This document shows, piece by piece, positions 3,855 through 29,174 of a stretch of DNA of 29,174 nucleotides. Source of the stretch: a virus (lineage: Duplodnaviria; Caudoviricetes); the IMG/VR virus record IMGVR_UViG_3300033067_000671, positions 1-29,174 of that record; one strand, given 5' to 3'. The notes beneath the pieces were generated by a model, which made no database searches, had not been told where the DNA came from, and saw only the letters and a program-made list of their open reading frames with translations. The position numbers were made by a program, and so were the translations under genes. Every line of letters starts with the position of its first letter. Positions within the stretch are counted from its first letter, which is position 1.

Positions 3855-6010
3855 TGGACAAGAAAAACGATGACATTCTGACGGAGGCAAAAGAACGCTT
3901 CCAGAAGTGTCAAGACTTCTGGTCGCCCATTTATAACGACTGCCTAGAGGATTTACGTTTCAGCCTTGGCAATCAGTGGGACGACGAAACAAGACGAGGC
4001 AGAGAAAACGATCCGGATGGGGCTAGGCCATGTCTGACAGTCGATAAATTGGAACAATACGTTCGTCAGGTAACAAATGACGCACGACAAAACAAGCCGG
4101 CACCAAAAGCACGACCGATACATGATAGTGACGAAGACGTGGCCGAGTTGGTGTCTGGCTTGTTCCGGCATATTGCCAATAATTCACGCGCAGATATTGC
4201 TTACGATACAGCCACAGAGTTTGCCGTCCGTTCTGGCTTTGGCTGGATTCGCGTCTGTACCGATTACGCAGACCAAGAGAGTTTTGAGCAAGAAATTCTT
4301 GTCAAGGCAGTTCGCAATCCGTTTAGCGTTTATATCGACCCTGATTTTCAGTCGATCAACGGGTCGGATTCTGAATATGCTTTTGTGTTTGACAATCTCC
4401 CCAGAAAGACCTTCGAGCGCCAATACCCTGACGCCGAGACCGTATCGTTTGAAGACCCTGATCTAGTTGCTCAGGGATGGTCGTCTGAAGAGCATGTTCG
4501 GGTCGCCGAATACTGGTCTGTTGAGTATGACGTAACCACGATTGACCCGCCAGAAGGATCAAATGCGCAGCCCCGCAAGGTTTACAAGAAGCGGGTGATG
4601 TGGCGCAAGATCACAGCATCAGAAGTGCTCGATGAGCGCGAGTGGCCTTGTCAATACATTGGCGTCATCCCTGTTTGGGGGCGCGTGATTGATGAGGCTG
4701 GCGTGTTGCGCGTACGGTCTTTGATCCACCCAGCCATTGATGCGCAGCGCATGTACAACTACGCCGCATCGAGTGCTGTTGAGCGTGTATCGCTTGCCCC
4801 TAAGGCCAAGTATCTGGCATCTGCCGAGGCTATTGAAGGCCATGAGGACAAGTGGGGACGCGCTCACATCAGCAATGACCCGGTGCTGACTTGGAATCAC
4901 ACGATTGATGGCCAGCCCATCCCGGCTCCGCAGTACATGGGCGGGGCGGAAGTGCCTAGCGGGTGGGTCAATCTCATGCAGGCGCACGAGCATGACATCC
5001 AAGCTGCTCTGGGTATGTACAACGCATCGCTAGGCGCTCCCAGTAACGAAAAGTCGGGCAAGGCAATCCTTGCTAGACAGCGTGAGGCCGACACATCCAC
5101 GTTTGATTTTATCGACAACCTCTCCCGTGCCATTGAGCAAACGTGGCGTGTTGTGCTCGGGCTGCTTCCGGCTATCTACGATACGCCGCGAGTCTTGCGC
5201 ATTGTTGGCGAGGACGGATCAGGAGAGACCGCAACACTTGACCCGCGCCTAGAAAAGCCTGTGATTGAGCAGCCAGACCCTATAACAGGGGCAATGCAGA
5301 AGCTGTTTAACCCGTTTATCGGCAAGTATGACGTCGAGGTGACGGTCGGCCCTGCTTACGCAACCAAGCGCCAAGAGACGGCGGAGTGGCTGACGCAAGT
5401 CACCCAAGGCAATCCGCAGATGTTGCAGCTTGTTGGCGACTTGATGTTTAAAGCATTAGACATGCCGATGGCCGATGAGGTAGCCAAGCGATTTAAAGCC
5501 ATGCTCCCGCCGCAGATTCAGCAGGCCGAATCAAAAGATGCTGGAGAGCAAATCCCGCCCGCAGTGCAAATGCAAATGCAGCAGATGCAACAAGGCTTGC
5601 AGCAGTCAATGCAGATCATCCAAAAACTACAGGCAGACCTACAGCAAGCCAAGGGCGAAGAGGACGTGACCCGCGCTGACTACATGCTCAAGGCTCAAAG
5701 CGCCAAGCTCGAACAGATGCAAGTGCAGATTAAGCAGGCCGAGCTAGAGCTGAAAGCAAAAGAAATCGCCGTGAAAGAGTACGAAGCCGAGACAGAGCGC
5801 CTGCAATTGATCTCACCCGCTGATGATAAAGGCGCGCAAGAAGAGATCGAAGCGCAAAAGGACGCGATGCAATTGCAAGTGCTTGCGCAAATCGCTGACA
5901 CCCTATCGAAAACATCGGCGGCGCTGTCTTTCCTGATGACAAAGCCGCATGAGGCTGACGATATGGAGTCTTACCCGCCAGAAGCCGGTGAGATGAGAGA
6001 TGGCGACTAG
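3854..6010 (+). CDS. P22-like portal protein
   Basis: Follows terL (TAATG overlap); GNQWD..R...RPCLT, SNEKSGKAILARQ, GKYDV.V.VGP, Gln-rich C-terminal coiled coil. Confidence 0.92.
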   Translation: MDKKNDDILTEAKERFQKCQDFWSPIYNDCLEDLRFSLGNQWDDETRRGRENDPDGARPCLTVDKLEQYVRQVTNDARQNKPAPKARPIHDSDEDVAELVSGLFRHIANNSRADIAYDTATEFAVRSGFGWIRVCTDYADQESFEQEILVKAVRNPFSVYIDPDFQSINGSDSEYAFVFDNLPRKTFERQYPDAETVSFEDPDLVAQGWSSEEHVRVAEYWSVEYDVTTIDPPEGSNAQPRKVYKKRVMWRKITASEVLDEREWPCQYIGVIPVWGRVIDEAGVLRVRSLIHPAIDAQRMYNYAASSAVERVSLAPKAKYLASAEAIEGHEDKWGRAHISNDPVLTWNHTIDGQPIPAPQYMGGAEVPSGWVNLMQAHEHDIQAALGMYNASLGAPSNEKSGKAILARQREADTSTFDFIDNLSRAIEQTWRVVLGLLPAIYDTPRVLRIVGEDGSGETATLDPRLEKPVIEQPDPITGAMQKLFNPFIGKYDVEVTVGPAYATKRQETAEWLTQVTQGNPQMLQLVGDLMFKALDMPMADEVAKRFKAMLPPQIQQAESKDAGEQIPPAVQMQMQQMQQGLQQSMQIIQKLQADLQQAKGEEDVTRADYMLKAQSAKLEQMQVQIKQAELELKAKEIAVKEYEAETERLQLISPADDKGAQEEIEAQKDAMQLQVLAQIADTLSKTSAALSFLMTKPHEADDMESYPPEAGEMRDGD

Positions 6011-6299
6011 AGAGGATGACGATAGGCAGATTGTGATTGATCGGAAGGTATCAATCACATGGCTTGCCGGTATTGTTCTTGTTGGCATGGGGTGGGGTGT
6101 TTCTCAATACTACGGTTATCAAGAATTTGCCAGAACCACGTCTGCCGCAATGGCTGAAAACACTTTAGCTCTTAAAGAGATTATCCGCGAAATGAGAGAA
6201 AAAGATTTAAGAGATCAGATTCGAGACGTAAAGCTAGCCGAGCACGATATTCGTATCTCAGATCATCAGCGGGCAATCGAGAAAATTATTAGCCGTTAA
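6000..6299 (+). CDS. Small single-TM membrane protein with coiled coil
   Basis: Hydrophobic segment VSITWLAGIVLVGMGWGV. Confidence 0.6.
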   Translation: MATREDDDRQIVIDRKVSITWLAGIVLVGMGWGVSQYYGYQEFARTTSAAMAENTLALKEIIREMREKDLRDQIRDVKLAEHDIRISDHQRAIEKIISR

Positions 6300-6312
6300 A
6301 AAGGGGTTTTAA

Positions 6313-6597
6313 ATGTCTTCAGGATTAAATGGAGCAATCGCAAAAACGCTAGAGAATACAACGCCGGTCGTTTTTTCTCTCTTTGATAATTCCTGCACCG
6401 CGCCGATCACTGCGACGCTGAAATCTAGCTACGCAAGCCGCTTGGTTGAGTTCTCAACAGATGGCGGTGTCGAATACTTTACGCCTTCATACGATTACAC
6501 GAGCGCGACGATGATTGTTGTTAGCTCGGTTGTGCCAATTACTCACATTCGCTTTACCGGCCAAGCCAATGACTACTATCTTGTAAAGGGGGCTTGA
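6313..6597 (+). CDS. Hypothetical beta-rich protein
   Basis: AAGGGG RBS, operon packing. Confidence 0.65.
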   Translation: MSSGLNGAIAKTLENTTPVVFSLFDNSCTAPITATLKSSYASRLVEFSTDGGVEYFTPSYDYTSATMIVVSSVVPITHIRFTGQANDYYLVKGA

Positions 6598-6598
6598 T

Positions 6599-7741
6599 AT
6601 GTTCCCGAGAAAAGAAAAGCTAGTCCGCTCACTTGTCGGCGCTGAGAAGATTTGGTCTCCTTCACCGTACCCTGCCGGAACGACCAACGTAACAATCGTC
6701 AATCAGATCCCAGTCCCAACAAGTGGCGTGACGGGCTTCAAGCTGATCTACGAAAACCCCACGACGACCGCTAGTACTCTCACTACAAGCAAATGGGCAA
6801 CTACAACGTCTGACGCCGATAACGGCTCTAGCCTGACTTGGACTTCCACGACGTTTTCTGGCGCAACGTCTATTGCATTGCCGGTGACTGTTGGTACTGC
6901 CCCGAATAATGTCAATAGTCCGATTGTTAGCGATCATATTTCAAAATACATTGCTAGCGGCTATCTGCAAGTGCGCAGCTACTTTTCAGGCTCTGGATGT
7001 GCTTTAAACCCGGCGGCGGGTGAATTGGCGGCTTTTGCATCTGCGACTTCTCGCACGTTTAAAACAGGCTTTGCGGCTGGTGCCGTGACGGATGTAACGG
7101 GCATGACGCTGACAAGCGGCCAGTTGATTGTCCCGTCTGGTGTGCTATGGACGTTTGGCCGATCTGCCGTGACACTGGCATGTTCCGGCGGCTCTACGCT
7201 TCGCGGCCAAGGCACAACGGCAAACGCCATGGGCATGGTTTATCGCGCAGCGGCATTGCTGACCAATAGCACCGTTGCGGTGACACCGTACGTGCAGGCA
7301 GTGAGTGGGCAAGGCTCTCAGACGAGTATGGATCAGATCGTAAAACTTGTCGACGCAGTCCGTCCGAATTACCTAGTACTGCTTCCCGGGTCGGGGAATG
7401 ATAGCGACTTGACCTCTGCCGGATTTGAGCAAATGAAGGGGCGGTTTGCGCAGTCTCTTGATTACTGCCGCAGAAATGGCGTGACACCGATTGCCGGAAC
7501 GCTGATGCCCAGCTCTTCGCTGACTGCTCCACAAGAGGCTTTGCGAGTCGCTCAGAACTCTTGGCTTCGGTCGCTTGGCGGTGTGCTGGTAGCTGATATT
7601 GCCGCCGTTGTCGAGAACCCGGCAAACCAAGCCCAAATTCTCCCCGCTTATGACTCCGGGGACGGTACTCACCTGAACGACGCTGGCGCTGCCGCGACTG
7701 CTGCGGCTATTGCTGGCGCGGTGTCTCAATCGCTTTACTGA
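6599..7741 (+). CDS. SGNH/GDSL hydrolase-domain protein with Thr/Ser-rich N-terminal domain
   Basis: Block I-like ACSGGST, block II AVSG, block III GSGND, block V DGTHLN. Confidence 0.75.
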   Translation: MFPRKEKLVRSLVGAEKIWSPSPYPAGTTNVTIVNQIPVPTSGVTGFKLIYENPTTTASTLTTSKWATTTSDADNGSSLTWTSTTFSGATSIALPVTVGTAPNNVNSPIVSDHISKYIASGYLQVRSYFSGSGCALNPAAGELAAFASATSRTFKTGFAAGAVTDVTGMTLTSGQLIVPSGVLWTFGRSAVTLACSGGSTLRGQGTTANAMGMVYRAAALLTNSTVAVTPYVQAVSGQGSQTSMDQIVKLVDAVRPNYLVLLPGSGNDSDLTSAGFEQMKGRFAQSLDYCRRNGVTPIAGTLMPSSSLTAPQEALRVAQNSWLRSLGGVLVADIAAVVENPANQAQILPAYDSGDGTHLNDAGAAATAAAIAGAVSQSLY

Positions 7742-7803
7742 GTTGTATCTAGCAACACCCTAACGGGCGGGTCTGCCCGGTTACTCTAATGAGAGATAAA
7801 TCA

Positions 7804-8589
7804 ATGGAAAACATCCCAGAAGTCGAGGGAGGCAAAGTCGCGCCGGTAGAAAACGTGACGAGCCAACCGACTGAGCCTAATACGCCTGAAACACAAGAGG
7901 CGGAACAGAAAGAAGTGAAGCAAGAGGAGAGAGAGGACGCGCCGCTACCCAAGGGGGTGCAGCGAAGAATCGACCGACTCACTAAACAGAAGTATGAATT
8001 GCAAGGGCGGCTTGAGGCACTAGAGCGGCAAATGCAACCACCGGCGCAGTCACAGCCGCAAAACGTGACGAGCAAGCCTCAGCGCTACGAATATGCCTCA
8101 GACGAGGATTTTGTCGAAGCGATGACGGATTACAAGCTGCAACAAGTGCAGCGGCAACACATGACACAGCAGCAGCTAGCCCAACAAGAGCGAGCGCGAT
8201 CACAAATGCAACAAGAGTTTTCGCGCAAGGCAATTGAAGCGGCGAAGGCTTACCCGGACTTTATCGAAGCGATTGAAGAAGCAGATGCGCAAGTTGCGCC
8301 GCATGTCGAGGCTGCCATTTATGCCAGCGACAAGAGCGCAGACATTGCCTATTTCTTTGCAAAAAACCCTGACGAATTGGAGCGCATCAACGCTCTTCAT
8401 CCAGTCAAGGCCGCAATGGAAATTGCCCGAATCGAAGCGAAGGTAACGCGCCCTACGAAACAAACAAGCAGCGCCCCACCGCCGATTAACCCGGTCGGCT
8501 CTAGGGCTGCTGTGAATAAAGACCCTTCCCAAATGACTGACCGCGAGTTCTCCGAATGGCGCAAGCGTCAGATCAAAGCACGTTCTTAA
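7804..8589 (+). CDS. Capsid scaffolding protein
   Basis: Directly upstream of coat gene; GVQRRIDRLT, IAYFFAKNP, SSAPPPINPV, MTD.EFSEWRKRQ. Confidence 0.85.
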   Translation: MENIPEVEGGKVAPVENVTSQPTEPNTPETQEAEQKEVKQEEREDAPLPKGVQRRIDRLTKQKYELQGRLEALERQMQPPAQSQPQNVTSKPQRYEYASDEDFVEAMTDYKLQQVQRQHMTQQQLAQQERARSQMQQEFSRKAIEAAKAYPDFIEAIEEADAQVAPHVEAAIYASDKSADIAYFFAKNPDELERINALHPVKAAMEIARIEAKVTRPTKQTSSAPPPINPVGSRAAVNKDPSQMTDREFSEWRKRQIKARS

Positions 8590-21415: not shown

Positions 21416-21718
21416 CTAACCCCCCGCCGTTTTAGTTTTGTTGGTTTTCTGTTTTTTAACCAATTTGACGGATTGTTTTTGCTCGGAAAACTCGACGCCA
21501 AGGTGTTCAGCGAGTAGGCTTACAGCGTCACTCAGCTCGACAGACGGCCACTGAATTCCGCAGCCAAAGTAGACTGGCGGGAATTTATCGACGTAAATCT
21601 TAAACCTCTCTTCAGTGCGTATTTTTTGCTTTCTTCCCTCATGCTCAAGCTCCGAAACCATCTTCTCAAGCTCCGAAACCCTCTTCTCAAGCTGTTCTAT
21701 TCGTTTATTCCCAAACAT
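21416..21718 (-). CDS. Hypothetical protein with heptad repeat
   Basis: GAGGG RBS; last gene of convergent operon. Confidence 0.6.
   Translation of the reverse strand: MFGNKRIEQLEKRVSELEKMVSELEHEGRKQKIRTEERFKIYVDKFPPVYFGCGIQWPSVELSDAVSLLAEHLGVEFSEQKQSVKLVKKQKTNKTKTAGG
21644..21693. repeat. 21-bp coding tandem repeat CTCAAGCTCCGAAACC(A/C)TCTT, about 2.4 copies
   Basis: Directly visible; encodes LEKRVSELEKMVSELE. Confidence 0.85.
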
Positions 21719-21740
21719 TTTTGCCCTCGCGTTTAAAAAA

Positions 21741-22166
21741 TTAAGGATTCACTACCTCATAAAAATGCTTTTGAAACATGATATGCCACCTATCTTTTGG
21801 GGCTGCCCACTCATAAAGCCCTGACTTTTTATTGAGCAATACCACATAATCGCCGTCCGAAAACTCAAGCCGCGCATGATCTCTAGCAGCTTCCGGCGAA
21901 ACAAAACCAGAAACGTGGTGTACGCGGGTCTTTTCTGACTCGTCTTTTTTTATTATGCCGCGTTCAATGATCTTTTCCTTGGCATTCCAAAGGGCGTCAT
22001 ACGCCTCATCAGATTCTGATAGCTTTGCCAATTCGTTCAAAAGGCTTGCGCATTCAAATCTTTCTCTTTCGGCACCTATTTTCATCCATGTTTTTTCGCT
22101 ATCAGAATAGCGAAACGCTCCTGTATCTTCTTTGCTTAAGAAAATTTTTTTAAGCCATCGGATCAT
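21741..22166 (-). CDS. Hypothetical phage protein
   Basis: ATG 1 nt after upstream stop; ER.ECA..L...A...I..RG motif. Confidence 0.6.
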   Translation of the reverse strand: MIRWLKKIFLSKEDTGAFRYSDSEKTWMKIGAERERFECASLLNELAKLSESDEAYDALWNAKEKIIERGIIKKDESEKTRVHHVSGFVSPEAARDHARLEFSDGDYVVLLNKKSGLYEWAAPKDRWHIMFQKHFYEVVNP

Positions 22167-22167
22167 G

Positions 22168-22476
22168 TCAGCATCTTTCAATGCTAGGAGTTACTGTAAA
22201 TACCCTCTCGCCAGACTCGGCAAGCACTGCAATTCTCATCGGATGGCATATAGTTGCCTCAAGTCTCGGCAGGTAATCTAACTCAAAAATAAGGATTTCC
22301 TCACCGCCTGAAGTGCCGCCTACTTTACCGGCAATGATCGGATATTCGGAACCATCCGAATGCTGAATTGCCGTGCTGTAAAGATATTTACCTTTTCCTA
22401 GCAAGACTTCCTTTGCTGCTTCAAAACATTTCTTGCAGTAGATGTACTCTGTAACAAAAGATCCTCTCTCACTCAT
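22168..22476 (-). CDS. Hypothetical protein (CxxC)
   Basis: Overlaps upstream stop; operon packing. Confidence 0.6.
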   Translation of the reverse strand: MSERGSFVTEYIYCKKCFEAAKEVLLGKGKYLYSTAIQHSDGSEYPIIAGKVGGTSGGEEILIFELDYLPRLEATICHPMRIAVLAESGERVFTVTPSIERC

Positions 22477-22906
22477 GTTTCACCATTTTCTCGCGTTTAA
22501 ATGAGTTTTTGCAATAGGCTGGCAATAGCCCTCTGTATCGCATCAGCGACTTTTTATCTGGCGCAACAGATGCACCATCATTGCCAGAACACTCGGTAAT
22601 CAACGCGTCAAGCGCTAACGTCATTTCCCTTAGAGAAAGTTCTAATATTTCCACATCGTTTGTTTTTTTCACTTTCCCACTAAAATCTATCTCTCTGTAG
22701 AGCATCGCGTCGGCACACAATTCAGGGAGCTGCTCAAGCAACAAAGCTATCCATTCTCTGTAAAAGCGCGATCCATGAATCTCGGCATAGCCGGACGGCC
22801 ACTGCACAAGCGCACAGTTTGGGTCATCCCACTCGCGGTTCCAACGCGCCTTATGCATAACTATTTTATCAACAGGAGATTGGGCGTCTAGCGCCTTCTT
22901 ACTCAC
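22469..22906 (-). CDS. Hypothetical protein
   Basis: GTGA coupling, GGGAGG RBS. Confidence 0.6.
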   Translation of the reverse strand: MSKKALDAQSPVDKIVMHKARWNREWDDPNCALVQWPSGYAEIHGSRFYREWIALLLEQLPELCADAMLYREIDFSGKVKKTNDVEILELSLREMTLALDALITECSGNDGASVAPDKKSLMRYRGLLPAYCKNSFKREKMVKHE

Positions 22907-23109
22907 ACTTCACCCTCCCCGGAAAGTTTTTGTGCAGCAGCAAATAAAAGCCCGTCGACGATATTTTCGTTCATTTCCTCTATTTCTGTTTTGCACGCAT
23001 CCATTACCTTTTTGCCAAAAAGAAAGAACCTTTCTTCTTCGTCCAAATCAATTGAGCCATAGTTTTGGCAAAAATGCTCTGCCAAAAGGAACAGCTTGTC
23101 GTTTGTCAT
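22903..23109 (-). CDS. Hypothetical acidic protein
   Basis: ATGA coupling. Confidence 0.55.
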   Translation of the reverse strand: MTNDKLFLLAEHFCQNYGSIDLDEEERFFLFGKKVMDACKTEIEEMNENIVDGLLFAAAQKLSGEGEV

Positions 23110-23351
23110 CCCATGACCCTCTGAAAAGTATCAACCACCTTCCCGCCGCCTTTGCTCAAAACCCAATCCAGAGAATATTTGTCAATATCAGTCTTAACCC
23201 CGTTATCGTAAACGGCAACGGCTTGATTCTGTTTTATTCCGCTAGGGAATAATATAGTCACATATTCAATTGTTTTTATATGTGGCGGGTTACAGTCGGG
23301 AGTGCCTTTTTCATACCAAGCCCAGTATAGTTTTTTATCTACCCAAGTCAT
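23106..23351 (-). CDS. Hypothetical protein
   Basis: ATGA-coupled to Q-like gene, AAGGGG RBS. Confidence 0.55.
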   Translation of the reverse strand: MTWVDKKLYWAWYEKGTPDCNPPHIKTIEYVTILFPSGIKQNQAVAVYDNGVKTDIDKYSLDWVLSKGGGKVVDTFQRVMG

Positions 23352-23716
23352 GACAGCCCCTTCGATTGCGCGTCTCGCCAATACTTCTTTACGGCCTCTT
23401 GGTACATTTCTATTTTTTCCTGATCCGTCCTCACCCGGCCAAAGCGAAAAACGCTATGCAGGTGGATGTGCTGGATGATCGCACCCTGCATGGGCGGCAG
23501 GTCTTGGATCACTTGCCAGCTTATCCTCGCGGCCTCAGAATCAGCATCGTCACACATGATCTCAAAGTAGTCCTCGCCTACTACTTTGGCTGTTTGTAGC
23601 CCAGCGCTCTTCGATGGGTAGCCTAGCCTTGTGTCTGACGAACGCATCCATCTAGCCCAATTGTTTAAATGCCACTCTGCAATTCTTGGGGTGTCTGCAA
23701 TGATTGTAAAATCCAT
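23348..23716 (-). CDS. Antitermination protein Q-like late regulator
   Basis: L.NWARWM...LGYP.KS, I.DLP..Q...I pattern; AAGGG RBS. Confidence 0.6.
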   Translation of the reverse strand: MDFTIIADTPRIAEWHLNNWARWMRSSDTRLGYPSKSAGLQTAKVVGEDYFEIMCDDADSEAARISWQVIQDLPPMQGAIIQHIHLHSVFRFGRVRTDQEKIEMYQEAVKKYWRDAQSKGLS

Positions 23717-23731
23717 TTTTACCCTTTTAGG

Positions 23732-23884
23732 TTATGGCACCAGCCCAAGAATAGGGGATTTGCTTGCATCCTTGATTGTCAGAGCTTGGCCTCGTGGCGC
23801 ATCGGTGAAGGATATGTGCGCATAGCCAGACCGGCACCCGGCAGCGGCTAGGCGGTACTGAGGCGGGATAAGATCGGCAATCAT
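23732..23884 (-). pseudogene. Possible truncated Rz/i-spanin remnant (50-aa ORF)
   Basis: ATGA-coupled to endolysin; begins MIADLIPPQYRLAAAG like spanin N-termini but lacks the full TM and coiled coil. Confidence 0.35.
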
Positions 23885-24411
23885 GCCAGTGCCGCCTTGA
23901 TCTTGGTGTAGCGTTCTCGACGCTGCACAGCCTCCAGCATGCCGGGGCCGTTTATTCGTCGCGTAATGCGCTCAAACAGCCCTGCGTCGGCCAGCTCGTT
24001 CAAGCCGTTCGACTGCCAGAACCACGCAGCCGACATAGCAGCATGGTCGGGGCGCCCCAACAATTCTGGGCTGGATAACAGATCAAGCCCGAGAGCCTTT
24101 CCGCACAGATCGTAATTGCGCCGGCCAGTGACTTGGATCAGCCCTCGCCCACAGAACCGCCGCCCGTCACCCGGCTGAGTATTCCCAAGGCTGGCGCTCC
24201 CCTCGTACTTAACCTGCCACTTAGTCGGCCCCCAAATCTCGCGGACGTAGGCAAGGCGTCCAGATTCAACCATGATCTGTGCCAGAAATGCCGATATCCT
24301 GTCAGGAGTGTTGATTTCAAAGCGATCCATCGCAGCGCTTAGCGGCGCAGCCCACTTCGCGGCTCTTGTAGCTCCGCACCCGGTCAGTCTGTCCAGCTCT
24401 TCGGCAGTCAT
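23881..24411 (-). CDS. Glycoside hydrolase family 19 endolysin
   Basis: R.SAFLAQ..ESG, LGNTQPGDG.RF.GRGLIQVTGR.NY, SAAWFW, ITRRING. Confidence 0.93.
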   Translation of the reverse strand: MTAEELDRLTGCGATRAAKWAAPLSAAMDRFEINTPDRISAFLAQIMVESGRLAYVREIWGPTKWQVKYEGSASLGNTQPGDGRRFCGRGLIQVTGRRNYDLCGKALGLDLLSSPELLGRPDHAAMSAAWFWQSNGLNELADAGLFERITRRINGPGMLEAVQRRERYTKIKAALA

Positions 24412-24491
24412 TGAATATCCTCTGGTAGATTCGACCGCAAGTATTTGCTGGCTGTCATCTCGGCAAGAGTGAAATTTTCGGTTAGTCGCAT
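24408..24491 (-). pseudogene. 27-aa remnant resembling a peptidase M15A endolysin N-terminus
   Basis: Manual translation MRLTENFTLAEMTASKYLRSNLPEDIQ; stop overlaps the GH19 ATG. Confidence 0.4.
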
Positions 24492-24541
24492 CGTTCCCGC
24501 CGATAGGTTAGGCTTTGATTTTATCACTTTACCAAAGTCTA

Positions 24542-25117
24542 TTACCTTGATTTCCTAAGTTTTTTTATGATTCTAGCCTTCTTCAAAAAAATACCGTGAA
24601 GCCTTAAAAGGTATTCCCTTGTCCATTTTATGGAACCATTGTTATTCAGTATCGCATCGACCCTATCCCTTCCAATCTTTGCAACCAAAGCAGCTTCATA
24701 GGCTTCACGGTTTGACCCTTTCCACTTGTTGCAATACTTGCATTGCTTCCAAATGTTGAGCGTGTAGTAACGCAAGTGATCTGCCGCCGCCCGGCTTCTG
24801 AAGTGGCCGGCATCATACGATCCGCCAACTCTTTGCGCAAACTCACCGCCACAAGATATGCAAGGCTTGTCCGCATCCCTCAGCCTTATATAAGCATGAC
24901 ACGACCTCTCGACAAACTTTTTAAGCTGCGGGATTGTCTTCATCGCATCAAGTTTTTCTTTGCACTCCTTGCGCTCCTCCCTCTCCTGCTTTGCGCGCTC
25001 TTTGTCTCCCTTGCTTTGTCCGTAGGCAATGGCGCAGGCCATGCTGCATGCGGTTTGCATTGGCCGGATCGGGCTAAATGGCACCTTGCATATCCGACAC
25101 CTCTTTTGCTTCGTCAT
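24542..25117 (-). CDS. ninG: NinG/Rap-family recombination endonuclease
   Basis: CRICK..F.P...Q..CS..CA, YIRLRD...PCISCG, DAGHFRSR....LRY...NI.KQC..CN. Confidence 0.9.
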   Translation of the reverse strand: MTKQKRCRICKVPFSPIRPMQTACSMACAIAYGQSKGDKERAKQEREERKECKEKLDAMKTIPQLKKFVERSCHAYIRLRDADKPCISCGGEFAQRVGGSYDAGHFRSRAAADHLRYYTLNIWKQCKYCNKWKGSNREAYEAALVAKIGRDRVDAILNNNGSIKWTREYLLRLHGIFLKKARIIKKLRKSR

Positions 25118-25163
25118 ACGGGCTTACCCTAATAAAATGTCGCAAAACTCGCCTTGCAGTGTT

Positions 25164-25199
25164 GTTATTGGACACTTTGGGGTCTACTTCTCGTTATGC
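25164..25199 (+). other. attI-like left junction of cassette array
   Basis: R box GTTATGC (25193-25199); GTTATGCGTCA matches 9/11 the complement of attC1 R'' flank; preceded by GGTCTAC + 5 nt and an upstream GTTATTG direct repeat; no attC stem. Confidence 0.45.
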
Positions 25200-25200
25200 G

Positions 25201-25410
25201 TCAAGGTTGTTCTGGTAAATACGCCCAGTGCGTAATGTCCATATCGTCCGCATCACCCATTGGCAAAATCCACTTCCCCGGCGACGATTTGCCTCCGATG
25301 GTGTGCCGCCACGCGTTCCAGCCGACGTGCTCTTCTCCGTATTTCGCGTCAAAAATTAAAACGCGCTCATTGTCTTCGGGGTAACGCTGAGTAGTTGAAA
25401 CCCATTCCAT
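25201..25410 (-). CDS. DUF551-family protein (cassette 1)
   Basis: MEWVS...R.PED..RVL ... ITHWAYLPEQP; GGAG RBS just inside R''. Confidence 0.85.
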   Translation of the reverse strand: MEWVSTTQRYPEDNERVLIFDAKYGEEHVGWNAWRHTIGGKSSPGKWILPMGDADDMDITHWAYLPEQP

Positions 25411-25428
25411 GCTTATCTCCAAAATTAC

Positions 25429-25507
25429 GCCTAACAATTCGGTCAAACGGACGCCCCTTGCGGGGTTCGTTCGCTACGCTCACCGCCGCTTACCTCAAGC
25501 GTTAGAA
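25429..25507 (+). repeat. attC site 1 (79 bp)
   Basis: GCCTAAC-AATTC-GGT[C]AAAC...GCTTACC-TCAAGC-GTTAGAA. Confidence 0.93.
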
Positions 25508-25689
25508 GGCGGCGGCGGCATGGGCATCCAGTGCGTGACGTGAAATTCCTCTTTCATCACATCGCGGCACCATTTCTTGCCTGTCCAAAATGCCGTGATC
25601 GGCCACGGCACATCAGGCCGACCAACGATGCACGACTCATACTCTTGCGGCATCCGCTCGGTGCAGGCAACCCAATTCATTTCCATCAC
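25495..25689 (-). CDS. DUF551-family protein (cassette 2)
   Basis: NWVACTERMP ... VTHWMPMPPPP; stop lies inside attC1. Confidence 0.88.
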   Translation of the reverse strand: MMEMNWVACTERMPQEYESCIVGRPDVPWPITAFWTGKKWCRDVMKEEFHVTHWMPMPPPPSNA

Positions 25690-26144
25690 GAACCCCCTTC
25701 TAACACGTCATTCGAGAGGGACGCTTCGCCTAACGGCTTCGCGCCCCTCAATTCGGCGTTAGATGCCACACTCTTTTGTCGCGCCCGGTATTCCTTCGCG
25801 TACTCGCGCATGTGATCGCGGTTCTTTGCGCGCCATGCCGCATTCTGCTTTTCCTTCCGTCGCGCCCGATCAATCAGCAGCCCAAGCACTGCGTGGAATT
25901 GATCTTTTGAGAAACCCAGCGCCTGCGCATCCTCCACGGCTCGAAAGTACATCGCCAGCGCCTCTGGCGATTTACGGGCGACACAAGAGCCAAGCCCCTT
26001 CCCCAATTTCTCACGCGGGGCGTTCCGAAAATACGCGGCACCGATGTCCAGCAACTTTTGACGCGGCGTCTTTTCACGCACGCGCACAGGCTTTACCGGC
26101 TTCGCCACTTTTGCCTTCTGCAACTGCTCCAAAATCGTCAGCAT
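25686..26144 (-). CDS. Basic hypothetical protein (cassette 3), reads through attC2
   Basis: GGGGGA RBS before ATG 26144; WRAKNRDHMREYAKEYR basic helix. Confidence 0.7.
   Translation of the reverse strand: MLTILEQLQKAKVAKPVKPVRVREKTPRQKLLDIGAAYFRNAPREKLGKGLGSCVARKSPEALAMYFRAVEDAQALGFSKDQFHAVLGLLIDRARRKEKQNAAWRAKNRDHMREYAKEYRARQKSVASNAELRGAKPLGEASLSNDVLEGGS
25698..25764 (+). repeat. attC site 2 (67 bp)
   Basis: TTCTAAC-ACGTC-ATT[C]GAGA...CCTCAAT-TCGGC-GTTAGAT. Confidence 0.93.
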
Positions 26145-26157
26145 TTGTTCCCCCGGC

Positions 26158-26213
26158 ATCTAACCTGTCATTCCAGCGAACGCCTATCGGCGTCGCTGAA
26201 TTTATCGTTAGGC
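26158..26213 (+). repeat. attC site 3 (56 bp)
   Basis: ATCTAAC-CTGTC-ATT[C]CAGC...GCTGAAT-TTATC-GTTAGGC; perfect L pairing. Confidence 0.95.
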
Positions 26214-26461
26214 GGCAAATCGGGGAAAGGCCGCGTAAATGAGAACCCTAGTTCTCTGCATTTTCTACGTCCTGCTTCAAAAACGCCTCGTGAAAAGCTG
26301 CTCTTATACGGGTTTCCAGAGATGCCGCGCGCTTCTGCCTCCCATCCCATGCGGAACGATGACGGGCTTCCCCAGCACAGCCGCGCCAGAGTGGCCCACT
26401 GGCCAACATTCATATCAAGCATCTCGTTGTATCCACCATGCGGGCATTCGCTTGGGTGCAT
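26168..26461 (-). CDS. Hypothetical protein (cassette 4)
   Basis: AAGGAG RBS; GW.A...G...NPY......F.AG motif; ends inside attC3. Confidence 0.7.
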   Translation of the reverse strand: MHPSECPHGGYNEMLDMNVGQWATLARLCWGSPSSFRMGWEAEARGISGNPYKSSFSRGVFEAGRRKCRELGFSFTRPFPDLPPNDKFSDADRRSLE

Positions 26462-26477
26462 AATTTCTCCTTGTTAC

Positions 26478-26544
26478 GCCTAACAGTTCATTGCACCGGA
26501 CCTGCGCAAAAATCCGCGCAGGCCGTTGAATTCAGGCGTTATGC
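26478..26544 (+). repeat. attC site 4 (67 bp)
   Basis: GCCTAAC-AGTTC-ATT[G]CACC...GTTGAAT-TCAGGC-GTTATGC. Confidence 0.93.
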
Positions 26545-26745
26545 CGCACCCGTCTGATCCATCATCACCGTGCGGGCCAGTGCCTCGCACGTTGGGCAGG
26601 TGTTAAACGGTGTCTGTGGCGGTGGCGCTGCCTGATCCATCGCCAAGTAAATGCGCTCCAGCAAGCTGGAAGAAAGAACGAAGTCGCCTTTCGCCAGCAT
26701 CACGTCATGCGCAGCGCCGATCATTTCTCGGGTCACAATCGTCAC
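26539..26745 (-). CDS. Hypothetical protein (cassette 5, gene 2)
   Basis: AAGGAG RBS, GTGA coupling; stop TAA is within R' of attC4. Confidence 0.7.
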   Translation of the reverse strand: MTIVTREMIGAAHDVMLAKGDFVLSSSLLERIYLAMDQAAPPPQTPFNTCPTCEALARTVMMDQTGAA

Positions 26746-27218
26746 TTGAAATACTCCTTATGTTCTCGCAGCAAGCGCAGCGATCTTTCGTCGTGGTTTT
26801 CCCACAACTGCAAGCCTCTGGCACGGAGCATTTCCTCGACTTCGTTCAGGCACTTGCGCCCGAAGTTCGGCCACTTCCTCATTTCGCTCCGGCTGAACAT
26901 GCATAAGTGGCGCACAGTAAAAGGCGGCTCGATGTCGAATGTTCCAGTTCCAGCGTATGAGGCGAACCCTGCCAGTTCGGCCCGAATGATGTTTGCCGGT
27001 CGTGTTGTCATGTCAGCCAAAAACACTTCAAGCGGAAAATCTAGCGGGTGTATCTTGCGCAGTTGTTGGGCCTCCATTTTTTGGAGAGCCTTCAGTTCCG
27101 CAATTTCTGTCAGCGTCTGCTCCGGGTCGCCGCATCCGTCGTCGCCAATCCCGAGCGCCTCATCAATCGCTGCCAGCGTGCGCACCGCCTGTTCAAACAT
27201 GCACTTGTAGTCTGTCAT
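26742..27218 (-). CDS. Protein with RNA polymerase alpha C-terminal-domain-like domain (cassette 5, gene 1)
   Basis: DMTTRPANIIRAE...TVRHL...S.SEMRKWPNFGRKCLNEVEEMLRARGL parallels RpoA CTD ELTVRSANCLKAE...[24 protein letters not shown]. Confidence 0.8.
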   Translation of the reverse strand: MTDYKCMFEQAVRTLAAIDEALGIGDDGCGDPEQTLTEIAELKALQKMEAQQLRKIHPLDFPLEVFLADMTTRPANIIRAELAGFASYAGTGTFDIEPPFTVRHLCMFSRSEMRKWPNFGRKCLNEVEEMLRARGLQLWENHDERSLRLLREHKEYFK

Positions 27219-27640
27219 TTACGTTCTCCGTTTCCGCCAGCGGCATAACCCGGCAGTCCAGCGGACGCCGTTCCGGCGCCGCTGACTTTTGCGTTAGATC
27301 GCGCACGGATTGCCTCTGCACAATCTTTTGCTTCATGGTTGTAAAAGGATTCGCAAACCTTCGCGCAAGCCTCGCGCTCTTCTACCACGGCAAACAGCTT
27401 TTGTTTTTCGATGTTGAAAACGGCGCACCAATACACCGCATAAGCAGCGTACCCAATAAACGCCAATTGAAATATCACATCAAGAAAATGCTTAAACGGC
27501 GCACCAAAGATCAATGACTCAGCGGTTGCCTCAAGGACGTTAAACATCACGAAAAACAACATCACAAGAACCGTCGTAAAGATAGGGTTTCCATCGCAAG
27601 ATTGCGCCAGCCTGAAAGTCATCAATTGCACTTTGTTCAC
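27215..27640 (-). CDS. Two-TM membrane protein with EREACAK motif (cassette 6), reads through attC5
   Basis: AAGG RBS + GTG; two hydrophobic segments; EREACAKVCE...CAEAIRAR. Confidence 0.7.
   Translation of the reverse strand: MNKVQLMTFRLAQSCDGNPIFTTVLVMLFFVMFNVLEATAESLIFGAPFKHFLDVIFQLAFIGYAAYAVYWCAVFNIEKQKLFAVVEEREACAKVCESFYNHEAKDCAEAIRARSNAKVSGAGTASAGLPGYAAGGNGERK
27243..27299 (+). repeat. attC site 5 (57 bp)
   Basis: GCATAAC-CCGGC-AGT[C]CAGC...GCTGACT-TTTGC-GTTAGAT; perfect L pairing. Confidence 0.95.
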
Positions 27641-27656
27641 AATTGCCTTTCAAAAA

Positions 27657-27700
27657 ATCTAACAGTCCGGTCAAGCCGACCTTCGGCGGCTTACCTCAAT
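27657..27700 (+). repeat. attC site 6, truncated (R' missing)
   Basis: ATCTAAC-AGTCC-GGT[C]AAGC...GCTTACC-TCAAT then TTATCTC instead of GTTRRRY. Confidence 0.85.
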
Positions 27701-27893
27701 TTATCTCAGCCCCTTGCAACATCGTCAGCCTGATCGACTCGACGATCCGCTCCCATGCTAGATCGCATTTTATCCACTTCGGGCGCTGCAGATACACTAG
27801 CGGCATGTGCTGCGCTCCGTCGCCGCCCCATATCGCACATTGCTTACAGACCCCGGCTATCGGGCCGCTAACAGCGTACGTTTCTACTTTCAT
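27696..27893 (-). CDS. Hypothetical protein (cassette 7)
   Basis: AAGGT RBS; PLVYLQRPKWI motif. Confidence 0.65.
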   Translation of the reverse strand: MKVETYAVSGPIAGVCKQCAIWGGDGAQHMPLVYLQRPKWIKCDLAWERIVESIRLTMLQGAEIN

Positions 27894-27912
27894 TTTTTAC
27901 CTTTCAAATGCC

Positions 27913-27969
27913 GCCTAACAGGTCGTTCGTTCGGACTCGCTGCGCTCGCCGCTGACCTCCACGTTAGGT
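27913..27969 (+). repeat. attC site 7 (57 bp), L boxes mismatched
   Basis: GCCTAAC-AGGTC-GTTCGTTC...GCTGACC-TCCAC-GTTAGGT. Confidence 0.8.
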
Positions 27970-27977
27970 GTCAGTTT

Positions 27978-28160
27978 TCAGTAAATTGACATTACTTTTT
28001 TAGTTTCGATCACTTGCGCAACCGTAACATTACATTCATGCTCGCCGCCCTCAAATGCCATTTCGGCAAGCCACTTATCCCGCTGCGCGTTGGCTTCTTC
28101 AATCGCGCCAAAATATAAAACCGAGGGGTAATACGGGTTGTCTTTTGTTACTACATACAT
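27978..28160 (-). CDS. Hypothetical protein (cassette 8)
   Basis: GGAGAG RBS inside cassette. Confidence 0.65.
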   Translation of the reverse strand: MYVVTKDNPYYPSVLYFGAIEEANAQRDKWLAEMAFEGGEHECNVTVAQVIETKKVMSIY

Positions 28161-28182
28161 ATAACTCTCCAGTTCAGCAGCC

Positions 28183-28239
28183 GCCTAACCCTTCAATCCA
28201 GCGAACCGGCTTGGCCTGTCGCTGATTTAATCGTTAGGC
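28183..28239 (+). repeat. attC site 8 (57 bp)
   Basis: GCCTAAC-CCTTC-AAT[C]CAGC...GCTGATT-TAATC-GTTAGGC; perfect L pairing. Confidence 0.95.
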
Positions 28240-28539
28240 CACTACGCTACGCCTCACAACGGCGACCATCTTCACGCTGCCGTTGTTAATAGTAATCTCA
28301 CCAAGACAATGCGAAAATTCCCCTGTGAGTGCGCTTTGCATTGGCGAAGCCAGCATCACCACACGACCAAGCAATTCCGCTAGGGTTGTCTCGAAGCCAT
28401 CCCCAAGATTGATTGTCTGCTCACACGCATCTTGCGAAAGCTCAAAGTAGTGATCTTCGTCGTCGCTAATGTGCTCAGGGTACGTCAAGCGAAGTACCTC
28501 GTGCATTTCAAGGTCATCAAGCGGTCGTGGTGTTTTCAT
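28234..28539 (-). CDS. Acidic hypothetical protein (cassette 9)
   Basis: AAAGGA RBS; stop TAA within R' of attC8. Confidence 0.7.
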   Translation of the reverse strand: MKTPRPLDDLEMHEVLRLTYPEHISDDEDHYFELSQDACEQTINLGDGFETTLAELLGRVVMLASPMQSALTGEFSHCLGEITINNGSVKMVAVVRRSVVA

Positions 28540-28582
28540 GTCGTTCCTTTCGTCATTGTTTGCATGCCTTTCTTTCCGTGCT

Positions 28583-28651
28583 GCCTAACATGGCGGTCAA
28601 GAGGGACGCTGCGCAAAAAGCCGCGCATCGCCCCTTGCCTAATCGTTAGAA
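28583..28651 (+). repeat. attC site 9 (69 bp)
   Basis: GCCTAAC-ATGGC-GGT[C]AAGA...CCTTGCC-TAATC-GTTAGAA. Confidence 0.92.
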
Positions 28652-28866
28652 GTCAGCCAGTTGTTACGGAATCCCCGCCACCATGACGCGGTATAGACAA
28701 AAGTTAGTGCAAGTATTCCCCATTGCCCAGCCGACCATGCCGAGTAAAACCAGAACGGCTGCCCGCATAGTCCGAAAATACAAGCCCATTTGCGCCACGG
28801 CTCACGCTTGTCATTTGCAAGCCAGATCGCAACACACCCAGTTAGAGCAATCGCTATTTGTTCCAT
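28639..28866 (-). CDS. Small Trp-rich multi-TM membrane protein (cassette 10)
   Basis: AIWL...W.KWA.IFGL.GQPFWFY.A..A.QWGI; ends inside attC9. Confidence 0.75.
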   Translation of the reverse strand: MEQIAIALTGCVAIWLANDKREPWRKWACIFGLCGQPFWFYSAWSAGQWGILALTFVYTASWWRGFRNNWLTSND

Positions 28867-28881
28867 TTCCGCCTTTCAGAC

Positions 28882-28950
28882 TTCTAACTTTACAGTCAAG
28901 GGGACTGCCAAAAGCTGCGCTTTTGTCATCCCCTTACTTCCACGTTATGG
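28882..28950 (+). repeat. attC site 10 (69 bp)
   Basis: TTCTAAC-TTTAC-AGT[C]AAGG...CCTTACT-TCCAC-GTTATGG; perfect L pairing. Confidence 0.95.
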
Positions 28951-29171
28951 GTCACAACCATTTTGTTGGCGTCAGCAATATGGTCGTCGTAATACAGCGC
29001 CTTGTGACACTCGCTTGTGGCATGCATCCCCGGCATACAGCACTCGCCGGGAAATAAGCAGCCAAATTCTGGCGGCTCAAAATCATCATCATCGTCTTGC
29101 AAATCAACCGCCTCGCCGCAGTCAATGCAACCGGCGGTCTTGCAAGCAGGAAAAGTACATAGATATGTCAT
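28926..29171 (-). CDS. Cys/Asp-rich hypothetical protein (cassette 11)
   Basis: Eight Cys plus poly-Asp; ends HNVEVRG inside attC10; true start may lie beyond the window. Confidence 0.55.
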   Translation of the reverse strand: MTYLCTFPACKTAGCIDCGEAVDLQDDDDDFEPPEFGCLFPGECCMPGMHATSECHKALYYDDHIADANKMVVTHNVEVRG

Positions 29172-29174
29172 CCT

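What the first reader, a model, noticed from the sequence alone, without database searches (positions are those of the whole stretch)
25194..29174. Phage-borne integron-type cassette array with all genes inverted relative to attC
Seen: ten attC sites in about 3.5 kb (56-79 bp when intact; RYYYAAC-like R'', 5-nt spacer, L'' with one extrahelical base, variable hairpin, L', GTT-led R'). They separate blocks of one or two short ORFs, and all ORFs lie on the strand opposite to the attC top strand. Established: in classical integrons the ORF is usually co-oriented with attC, ends near R'', and arrays sit on chromosomes, plasmids or transposons beside intI. Here the cargo is phage-type (DUF551 x2, EREACAK motif, alpha-CTD-like) and co-directional with ninG, endolysin and the Q-like gene. 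Inference: the phage's hypervariable early/nin region is built as a shufflable cassette array expressed from a phage promoter at the far end. To my knowledge this is not a recognised feature of phage genomes.
Basis: partly seen in the sequence, partly recalled or inferred. Interest (0 to 1): 0.97.

Follow-up and report, generated by a model that had tools for sequence, protein, structure and literature searches.

The report
Phage integron platform with reversed genes
This phage keeps a dozen small accessory genes in swappable integron-type cassettes behind a docking site like that of bacterial integrons, but every gene faces backwards, and the swapping is likely done by an enzyme borrowed from the host, which suggests that phages run their own version of the gene-capture system known from antibiotic resistance.

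Summary
Confirmed and extended. A model trained on bacterial attC sites finds all ten sites (25429-28950), all in one orientation, and no other site on the contig at E<0.1. The genes lie on the attC bottom strand, the reverse of normal integrons. Cassette ends pair as excised circles would (7 of 9 perfect, p=0.0005). Cassettes 3, 5 and 6 recur elsewhere with other neighbours, joined at the G|TT crossover. The 29-kb fragment has no integrase, nor do 8 of 8 near-complete phage records with such sites. Other viral contigs carry a true IntI behind reversed arrays, 60 of them in one clade. Reversed genes are the rule in viral loci (140 reversed, 9 normal, 72 undecided of 221 gaps), not in bacterial ones (7, 38, 11 of 56). 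Phage attC clusters are published (PMC9892861); I found no paper on the reversal or on attI without intI. This scan has noted the same pattern on other phage DNA. Recombination itself is untested.

The parts
25126..25199 (+). attI-like docking site; L box about 25180-25187, 5-nt spacer, R box 25193-25199, predicted crossover G25193|T; lies just upstream of the ninG start
   Evidence: Rank 1 of 807 GTT sites under a matrix from 34 bacterial intI-adjacent sites (10.3 bits, next 3.9), rank 29 under the phage-clade matrix; like the array heads of L052 and L086
25201..25410 (-). Cassette 1 gene, DUF551 (69 aa)
   Evidence: Pfam PF04448
25429..25507 (+). attC 1 (top strand +)
   Evidence: 55.4 bits
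25495..25686 (-). Cassette 2 gene, DUF551 (63 aa); stop codon supplied by attC 1
   Evidence: PF04448
25698..25764 (+). attC 2
   Evidence: 32.0 bits
25686..26144 (-). Cassette 3 gene (152 aa, unknown); frame reads through attC 2 and stops on the next start
   Evidence: 99% copy with other neighbours in run X5
26158..26213 (+). attC 3
   Evidence: 41.9 bits
26168..26461 (-). Cassette 4 gene (97 aa, unknown); stop inside attC 3
   Evidence: 61% relative in a reversed cassette of L020
26478..26544 (+). attC 4
   Evidence: 47.5 bits
26539..26745 (-). Cassette 5, second gene (68 aa, unknown); stop codon in the R box
   Evidence: 82-91% relatives in L019, L008, L018, L036, L250
26742..27218 (-). 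Cassette 5, first gene (158 aa) with an RNA polymerase alpha-CTD-like domain
   Evidence: PF03118; 234 relatives
27243..27299 (+). attC 5, a very widespread type
   Evidence: 46.7 bits; its pattern hits 54 viral and at least 121 genome stretches
27215..27625 (-). Cassette 6 gene (about 136 aa, start uncertain, EREACAK motif); reads through attC 5 and stops on the next start
   Evidence: copy starting at 27292 behind other DNA in run X3
27657..27706 (+). attC 6, truncated (no GTT box; likely locked)
   Evidence: 26.6 bits
27696..27893 (-). Cassette 7 gene (65 aa, unknown)
27913..27969 (+). attC 7, L'' arm mispaired
   Evidence: 28.3 bits; folding z -0.1
27978..28160 (-). Cassette 8 gene (60 aa, unknown)
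28183..28239 (+). attC 8
   Evidence: 40.1 bits on '-', 14.1 on '+'
28234..28539 (-). Cassette 9 gene (101 aa, unknown); stop codon in the R box
28583..28651 (+). attC 9
   Evidence: 31.2 bits
28639..28866 (-). Cassette 10 gene (75 aa small membrane protein)
   Evidence: phrog_22312; 81% relative in L055 with a different attC
28882..28950 (+). attC 10
   Evidence: 18.3 bits; clean hairpin in circle form
28926..29171 (-). Cassette 11 gene (81 aa); its attC would lie beyond the contig end
   Evidence: Relatives in reversed cassettes of L252 and L004
24542..25117 (-). ninG, first fixed gene after the docking site, where intI would stand in a complete integron
   Evidence: PF05766, phrog_171

Best explanation
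The region is a row of ten attC sites and an attI-like site inside a P22-like phage, with each small gene on the strand opposite to that of bacterial cassettes, and it likely works as an integron platform whose integrase is supplied in trans, most likely by the host. Shown: site anatomy, strand, reversed genes, circle-type pairing of cassette ends, and the same cassettes beside other neighbours with joints at G|TT. Inferred: an IntI folds on the attC bottom strand, excises a cassette as a circle and inserts circles at G25193|T. New cassettes would enter next to ninG, at the downstream end of the block, and push older ones towards a phage early promoter beyond the contig end. That promoter would read through all cassettes into ninG, so no Pc promoter is needed. 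Hairpins sit ahead of each gene (start 11-43 nt after R''), and 7 of 11 frames run on into the neighbour's attC, two of them stopping on the next start codon, which would couple translation across the hairpin. A speculative reason for the reversal: host cassettes landing in the phage attI, and phage cassettes landing in the host attI, would both face away from the promoter and stay silent.
For: Model hits and strand. Left core of each cassette is the exact reverse complement of its own R'' in 7 of 9 testable cassettes (2 mismatches in all; permutation p=0.0005), against 1 of 9 for pairing within a site; same pattern in 79 of 111 and 82 of 110 viral gaps and 44 of 56 bacterial gaps. Cassette 5 relatives begin or end at the crossover with different neighbours in L019, L008/L018, L036. 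In another study's runs cassette 3 (5 differences) is joined at 28943|25758 to an attC-10-like site, and cassette 6 starts at 27292 behind other DNA. attI rank 1 of 807. A host-type attI heads 9 of 41 viral array ends examined, in 8 of 9 with an R box exactly matching the first attC; L031 and L046 share one attI with different first cassettes. No IntI in 8 of 8 records at least 90% complete, 1 of 27 overall; IntI over cut-off in 124 of 301 genomes of the order whose attI matches. PH101_attC2, which IntI1 recombined, best by its bottom strand (PMC9892861 text and Table S3), has its genes on that strand.
Against: The contig is a fragment, so an intI in the missing part cannot be excluded. The host is unknown; the Burkholderiales link rests on the attI matrix, built from that order. 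The attI score (10.3 bits) is at the low end of the training sites (most 12-27). Sites 6 and 7 are damaged, so part of the array is likely frozen. No joint at the phage's own depth that skips a cassette was listed for the best-holding run (contigs only, tables cut). Some exchange does not follow the crossover: the cassette 10 gene has another attC in L055 and a cassette 1 copy diverges inside attC 1. Only 1 of 26 portal-related records has attC sites, 0 of 5 near-complete ones, so it is not general for P22-like phages. TJE1 carries phage-type cassettes the normal way round. No expression data.
Confidence: 0.72

Rival explanations
1. Same array, but the phage encodes its own IntI in the missing part of the genome, or relies on IntI from co-infecting phages of the viral IntI clade.
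For: Viral contigs with true IntI exist (L038: TIGR02249 474.6 bits, cut-off 265); 48 of 79 viral intI loci have attC upstream, bottom strand co-directional with intI (counted by hand); relatives of cassette 5 and 11 genes lie in their arrays (L224, L250, L252).
Against: In those phages intI starts close behind attI; here ninG holds that place. The window's site fits the bacterial matrix, not the phage-clade one (rank 1 against 29). Complete phages with host-type attI lack IntI.
Confidence: 0.15
2. The sites are attC in origin but the array is now a relic, or is reshuffled mainly by homologous recombination (NinB, NinG, Red-type) with attC as boundary sequences.
For: Two damaged sites; ninB and ninG in the genome; gene-attC pairings differ between phages; relatives of the cassette 10 gene occur with no attC within 600 nt in 5 loci.
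Against: The ten sites differ much in sequence; circle pairing is nearly perfect; a 99%-identical cassette has new neighbours with the joint at the crossover, which implies recent site-specific movement.
Confidence: 0.08
3. A piece of a host chromosomal integron was captured whole by the phage.
For: Host-type attI; the same attC types occur in bacterial genomes; precedent in Vibrio and Shewanella prophages.
Against: Flipping a block cannot reverse genes relative to their own attC. Bacterial gaps are mostly normal (38 normal, 7 reversed, 11 undecided of 56), and 3 of the 7 lie in L086, a contig with a ninB relative. Cargo relatives are in viral arrays.
Confidence: 0.02
4. Assembly chimera made at multi-copy attC sites.
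For: Sites 2, 4 and 5 are extremely multi-copy in the best-holding run, and its contigs do not bridge 26356-27267.
Against: One exact contig spans 23300-25729 (endolysin, ninG, attI, attC 1, into attC 2) and another 27267-29166; exact pieces between have like depth, 5.6-8.8. That run may be the source sample. At worst the order around cassettes 4-5 is uncertain.
Confidence: 0.03

Closest known systems
CALINs and integrons in phage genomes (Qi, Rajabal, Ghaly, Tetu, Gillings 2023, PMC9892861; main text through the conclusion and part 1 of 2 of the supplement read; the Dryad annotation file not seen)
   Same: attC clusters without intI in phages; phage attC sites recombine with IntI1 and attI1; DNA methyltransferase cargo.
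   Different: They found 17 CALINs (2-4 sites in those tabulated) and treat them mainly as carriers of bacterial cassettes. The parts I read do not mention genes reversed relative to attC, attI in phages lacking any intI, or a viral IntI clade. By my model two of their examples (PH101, ctTUS972) are reversed and two (TJE1, M16-3) are not.
Sedentary chromosomal integrons of Betaproteobacteria/Burkholderiales (IntI, attI, attC, Pc)
   Same: attC anatomy, bottom-strand asymmetry, G|TT crossover, attI consensus.
   Different: Genes antisense to the attC top strand; no intI or Pc at attI; platform inside a phage operon; newest cassette would be farthest from the promoter; shorter cassettes (median gap 376 against 554 nt).
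Inverted-integrase integrons (definition as quoted in PMC13323075, passage seen)
   Same: In the IntI-bearing viral relatives intI is co-directional with the cassette genes.
   Different: There intI and attC are on the same strand; here intI and attC keep the regular geometry and the genes are flipped.
Cassette insertion in opposite orientation by top-strand recombination (Nivina et al. 2016, PMC5027507, passages seen)
   Same: Gene faces away from the usual promoter position.
   Different: That flips the whole cassette including attC; here all attC sites face attI normally and only the genes are reversed.

Membership tests
attC site | R''-spacer-L'' ... L'-spacer-R' with AAC/GTT triplets, folding into a hairpin | tested here: met
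   8 of 10 intact; site 6 lacks GTT, site 7 has a mispaired L arm; folding z -3.1 to -5.7 for sites 2-5 and 8-10, -2.2 for site 6, about 0 for sites 1 and 7 (site 10 offset by one base there)
attC site | Extrahelical bases and strand asymmetry marking the bottom strand | tested here: met
   Bottom-strand model scores '-' far above '+'
attC site | Recombined by IntI as folded single strand | not testable with these tools
   Shown only for other phage attC sites (PMC9892861)
Integron gene cassette | Mobile unit bounded by G|TT crossovers, ends pairing in the circle | tested here: met
Integron gene cassette | Gene usually on the top strand, ending near R'' | tested here: not met
   Genes start near R'' on the bottom strand
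Complete integron | intI next to attI | tested here: not met
   ninG follows attI; no IntI match in the window; missing genome part untested
Complete integron | attI site | tested here: met
   By sequence only: rank 1 of 807, 10.3 bits; function untested
Complete integron | Pc promoter upstream of attI driving the cassettes | tested here: inconclusive
   One 9-of-12 match at 25111-25138 on +, but 7 found against 7.0 expected by chance; it would be antisense to the genes
CALIN | Two or more attC sites with no integrase nearby | tested here: met
   Ten sites; no IntI on the contig; the array runs off the contig end

The most novel reading that the evidence does not exclude
Phages run a parallel integron system: their own pool of reversed cassettes (small early genes, DNA methyltransferases and other counter-defence-type genes), docked either at a phage-specific attI with a phage-specific IntI clade or, as here, at a mimic of the host attI that hijacks the host integrase, with the reversed polarity acting as a firewall that silences host defence cassettes in the phage and phage cassettes in the host.
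Probability: 0.45. Interest if true: 0.9.

Novelty: new variant of a known kind. Interest (0 to 1): 0.76.

Why it matters
Integrons are viewed as bacterial devices for resistance and anti-phage genes. A working phage counterpart would give a site-specific mechanism for the mosaic early regions of tailed phages, beyond homologous or illegitimate recombination. It marks out accessory genes with exact borders, a ready screen for counter-defence functions: 12 of 110 sampled reversed genes match DNA methyltransferases, 2 Mom-like, 2 PAPS-reductase-like and 1 Lar-like. It bears on the open question of where cassettes come from, since relatives of one gene occur both with and without a nearby attC. 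It also opens a two-way route between phage and bacterial cassette pools.

Tried and rejected
Rfam: 0 matches. NinG search of IMG/VR: no confirmed relative. Exact attI-region patterns: 0 viral hits, 6 unrelated repeats in metagenomes with no attC, 1 of 401 genomes for a looser pattern. Longest-ORF strand test was uninformative for viral gaps (33 reversed, 25 normal, 43 undecided of 101) and was replaced by a ribosome-site test (74 against 4 of 101) and a self-trained codon model (11 and 16 duplicate viral gaps skipped). Three rows (L008, L018) were labelled 'co' by a looser detector; searches show them reversed. Site 10 was off by one base, corrected. My first attI candidate (25126-25141, like the Shewanella attI printed in PMC9892861) lacks GTT and was set aside for 25193; it may be an accessory site. 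Promoter and terminator scans were at chance level. PADLOC: 0 of 12 window cassette proteins. ESM Atlas for the alpha-CTD-like protein: best 0.82, a lead only; the paper search on it listed nothing on a phage alpha-CTD homologue. No RNA holder listed. Two joints in run X2 near sites 4-5 come from short multi-copy attC contigs and were not counted. The mirror-image idea (top strand active) was rejected because shared-cassette borders and circle pairing put the crossover at the + strand GTT. Phage-type attI pattern: 4 of 301 host genomes, contexts not examined. Sequence look-up in earlier scan notes: nothing.
Full report
Setting. The window is the whole record, a 29,174-base virus contig. It encodes a P22-like head (terminase, portal PF16510, scaffold, coat PF11651) and tail on +, with ninB near the left end. 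From 21,416 the called genes are on -: unknown genes, a GH19 endolysin, ninG, then the region in question, which runs off the contig. No tyrosine recombinase was matched among 51 proteins scanned, and tblastn with an IntI gave nothing in the window.

The sites are real. Ten sites lie between 25429 and 28950. A covariance model from 30 attC bottom strands (29 from bacterial genome loci, one from the canonical integron of prophage M16-3) finds all ten at 18-55 bits, bottom strand on -, and nothing else at E<0.1. The training loci were fetched with a pattern from site 5; pattern-matching sites were left out. Site 6 has lost its GTT box and site 7 pairs badly.

They delimit cassettes. The left core of a cassette is the exact reverse complement of its own R'' box in 7 of 9 testable cases (cassette 7 left out, its left core being lost; p=0.0005 over all 362,880 permutations), whereas a site pairs perfectly with itself in 1 of 9. 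This is what excision and reinsertion of circles at G|TT leave behind. Cassette 5 relatives start at the crossover behind a different attC in L019 and end at the crossover before different DNA in L036 and L008/L018. In runs of a separate freshwater study, cassette 3 (5 differences in 456 bases) is joined at 28943|25758 to an attC-10-like site and followed by other DNA, cassette 6 starts at 27292 behind 97 other letters, and attC 1 is followed by another cassette. Against a pure crossover model, the cassette 10 gene has another attC in L055, and one cassette 1 copy diverges inside attC 1.

The genes are reversed. In the window the codon model favours - in 7 of 10 cassettes and + in none; starts lie 11-43 nt after R'' on the bottom strand. 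Across viral loci found by attC pattern the count is 73 reversed, 3 normal, 35 undecided of 111; in viral intI loci 67, 6, 37 of 110; in bacterial genome loci 7, 38, 11 of 56. Three of those 7 are in L086, a binned contig where the array ends at an attI-like site before a ninB relative. 43 of 110 randomly drawn reversed genes (of 165) match PHROGs at 1e-5 on that strand, against 7 of 35 bacterial cassette genes (counted by hand).

A docking site. A matrix learned from 34 of 35 bacterial intI-upstream regions (mostly one order, that of a Thiobacillus bin) ranks G25193 first among 807 GTT sites of the window, 10.3 bits against 3.9 for the next; none of the attC ends is in the top six. Its R box differs by one base from the complement of site 1's R''. 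Such host-type sites head 9 of 41 viral array ends examined, 8 with an exactly matching R box; many of the rest lack upstream sequence, and I ran no chance control for the 8-bit threshold. L031 and L046 have an identical site followed by different cassettes. None of 8 near-complete records with such attC sites encodes IntI, 1 of 27 records overall; for most the first look found no candidate at all. IntI passes its cut-off in 124 of 301 genomes of the candidate host order (the tally includes two genomes marked unpublished, on which nothing else rests).

Phages with their own IntI. L038, with repressor-like, integrase and endolysin genes, has three attC sites, a distinct attI, then a true IntI (TIGR02249, 474.6 bits) co-directional with the cassette genes. 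A profile scan of IMG/VR gave 376 stretches at E<=1e-3 (this may include other tyrosine recombinases); the best 80 were kept. Of 165 model hits in 79 of these loci 160 have the bottom strand co-directional with intI, upstream of it in 48 loci. Identical intI-attI stretches are followed by different first cassettes (L221/L222, L226/L227, L292/L294). In a FastTree of 118 IntI, 60 viral sequences form one clade (support 0.995); L290 and L278 nest among bacterial ones. The viral set was chosen by likeness to L038 and the bacterial set by model score, so the clade needs an unbiased test. The window's site does not fit this clade's attI (rank 29).

Mechanism. Shown: anatomy, strand, unit mobility. 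Inferred: IntI in trans, likely the host's, excises and inserts cassettes at 25193; a phage promoter beyond the contig end reads through the block into ninG. Seven of 11 frames run past their crossover into the neighbouring attC, and two stop on the next start codon; in other viral arrays 35 of 137 run past, 39 stop in the R box, 63 before it. Published work on attC hairpins and translation exists (Jacquier 2009, seen only as a reference). The firewall idea is speculation; anti-phage genes in bacterial cassettes are reported in two preprints seen as search listings only (10.1101/2024.07.02.601686, 10.1101/2024.07.02.601719).

Assembly. In the best-holding run, perhaps the source, one exact contig joins endolysin, ninG, attI and attC 1-2 (23300-25729), another spans 27267-29166; 26356-27267 is covered only by short pieces at similar depth. 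The order around cassettes 4-5 is therefore not independently confirmed.

Prevalence. Not universal: 1 of 26 portal-related records has attC sites. Among GenBank phages only MW202573 matched the array.

Literature. Eight searches on integrons in phages or on cassette orientation listed one study devoted to the subject, PMC9892861 (main text through the conclusion and supplement part 1 of 2 read; its Dryad annotation file and figures not seen, and they may show gene strands). It reports 17 phage CALINs, 3 complete integrons and IntI1 recombination of 5 of 6 tested sites. It calls the PH101 array typical, yet the PH101_attC2 strand in its forward primer (which I take as the bottom strand, by analogy with its control; colour marking was lost) is the coding strand of the flanking genes. 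ctTUS972 is also reversed; TJE1 and M16-3 are normal. Passages only were seen of PMC5027507, PMC8946536, PMC11551772, PMC13323075, 10.1101/2022.09.11.507474 and 10.64898/2026.09.14.751636; none of those passages describes reversed phage arrays. PMC13676570 (Acinetobacter phages, mentions CALINs) was seen as a listing only. The library lacks most subscription papers. Earlier notes of this scan describe the same pattern on other phage DNA; they are not independent support.

Verdict. A real, recently mobile, reversed cassette array with a host-type docking site in a phage: a new variant of the integron, part of a wider viral pattern that includes phages with their own IntI. Interest 0.76.

Noticed in passing
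L038 (IMGVR_UViG_3300020042_007480) 4126-6472 and L218-L298: Viral contigs with a complete integron: true IntI, conserved attI close upstream of the intI start, reversed cassettes co-directional with intI; 60 sequences form one clade.
   Followed up: partly
KR534323 (phage PH101) 76228-77987: A published, experimentally tested phage attC cluster has its genes on the attC bottom strand, not remarked in the text I read.
   Followed up: yes
HQ225832 (phage TJE1) 77-1519: Normal-orientation cassettes whose first gene looks DUF551-like by eye, beside a methyltransferase: phage-type cargo also occurs the usual way round.
   Followed up: partly
window 26742-27218: RNA polymerase alpha-CTD-like protein with 234 relatives; its first 44 residues recur on unrelated C-terminal parts, so cassette 5 is itself modular. 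Possible decoy for host transcription activators (guess).
   Followed up: partly
window 25686-26144 and 27215-27625: Frames read through a whole attC and stop on the next gene's start; the attC-5-encoded peptide recurs at protein ends in many viral loci.
   Followed up: partly
L086 (CAZRFC010000109.1) 4613-7830: Contig binned in a Mycobacterium MAG carries a reversed array, an attI-like site close to the window's, and a ninB relative; probably a misbinned phage.
   Followed up: partly
L248 8489-9857, L278 3755-3814: Viral intI loci with attC downstream of intI in the other orientation, like inverted-integrase integrons.
   Followed up: no
L004 4501-7663 and 11397-11713: Two attC groups in opposite orientation in one complete phage genome without IntI.
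   Followed up: no
window 21416-24527: Endolysin and several unknown genes lie on the early-arm strand, converging on the tail genes, unlike the P22 order (recalled); ninB and ninG sit on opposite arms.
   Followed up: no
window 6599-7741: GDSL-like lipase/acylhydrolase gene (PF13472) between portal and scaffold.
   Followed up: no
window 25138-25186: Run X3 holds this stretch alone in another context, followed by a GTT box at the same spacing: the docking site occurs as a shared module.
   Followed up: partly
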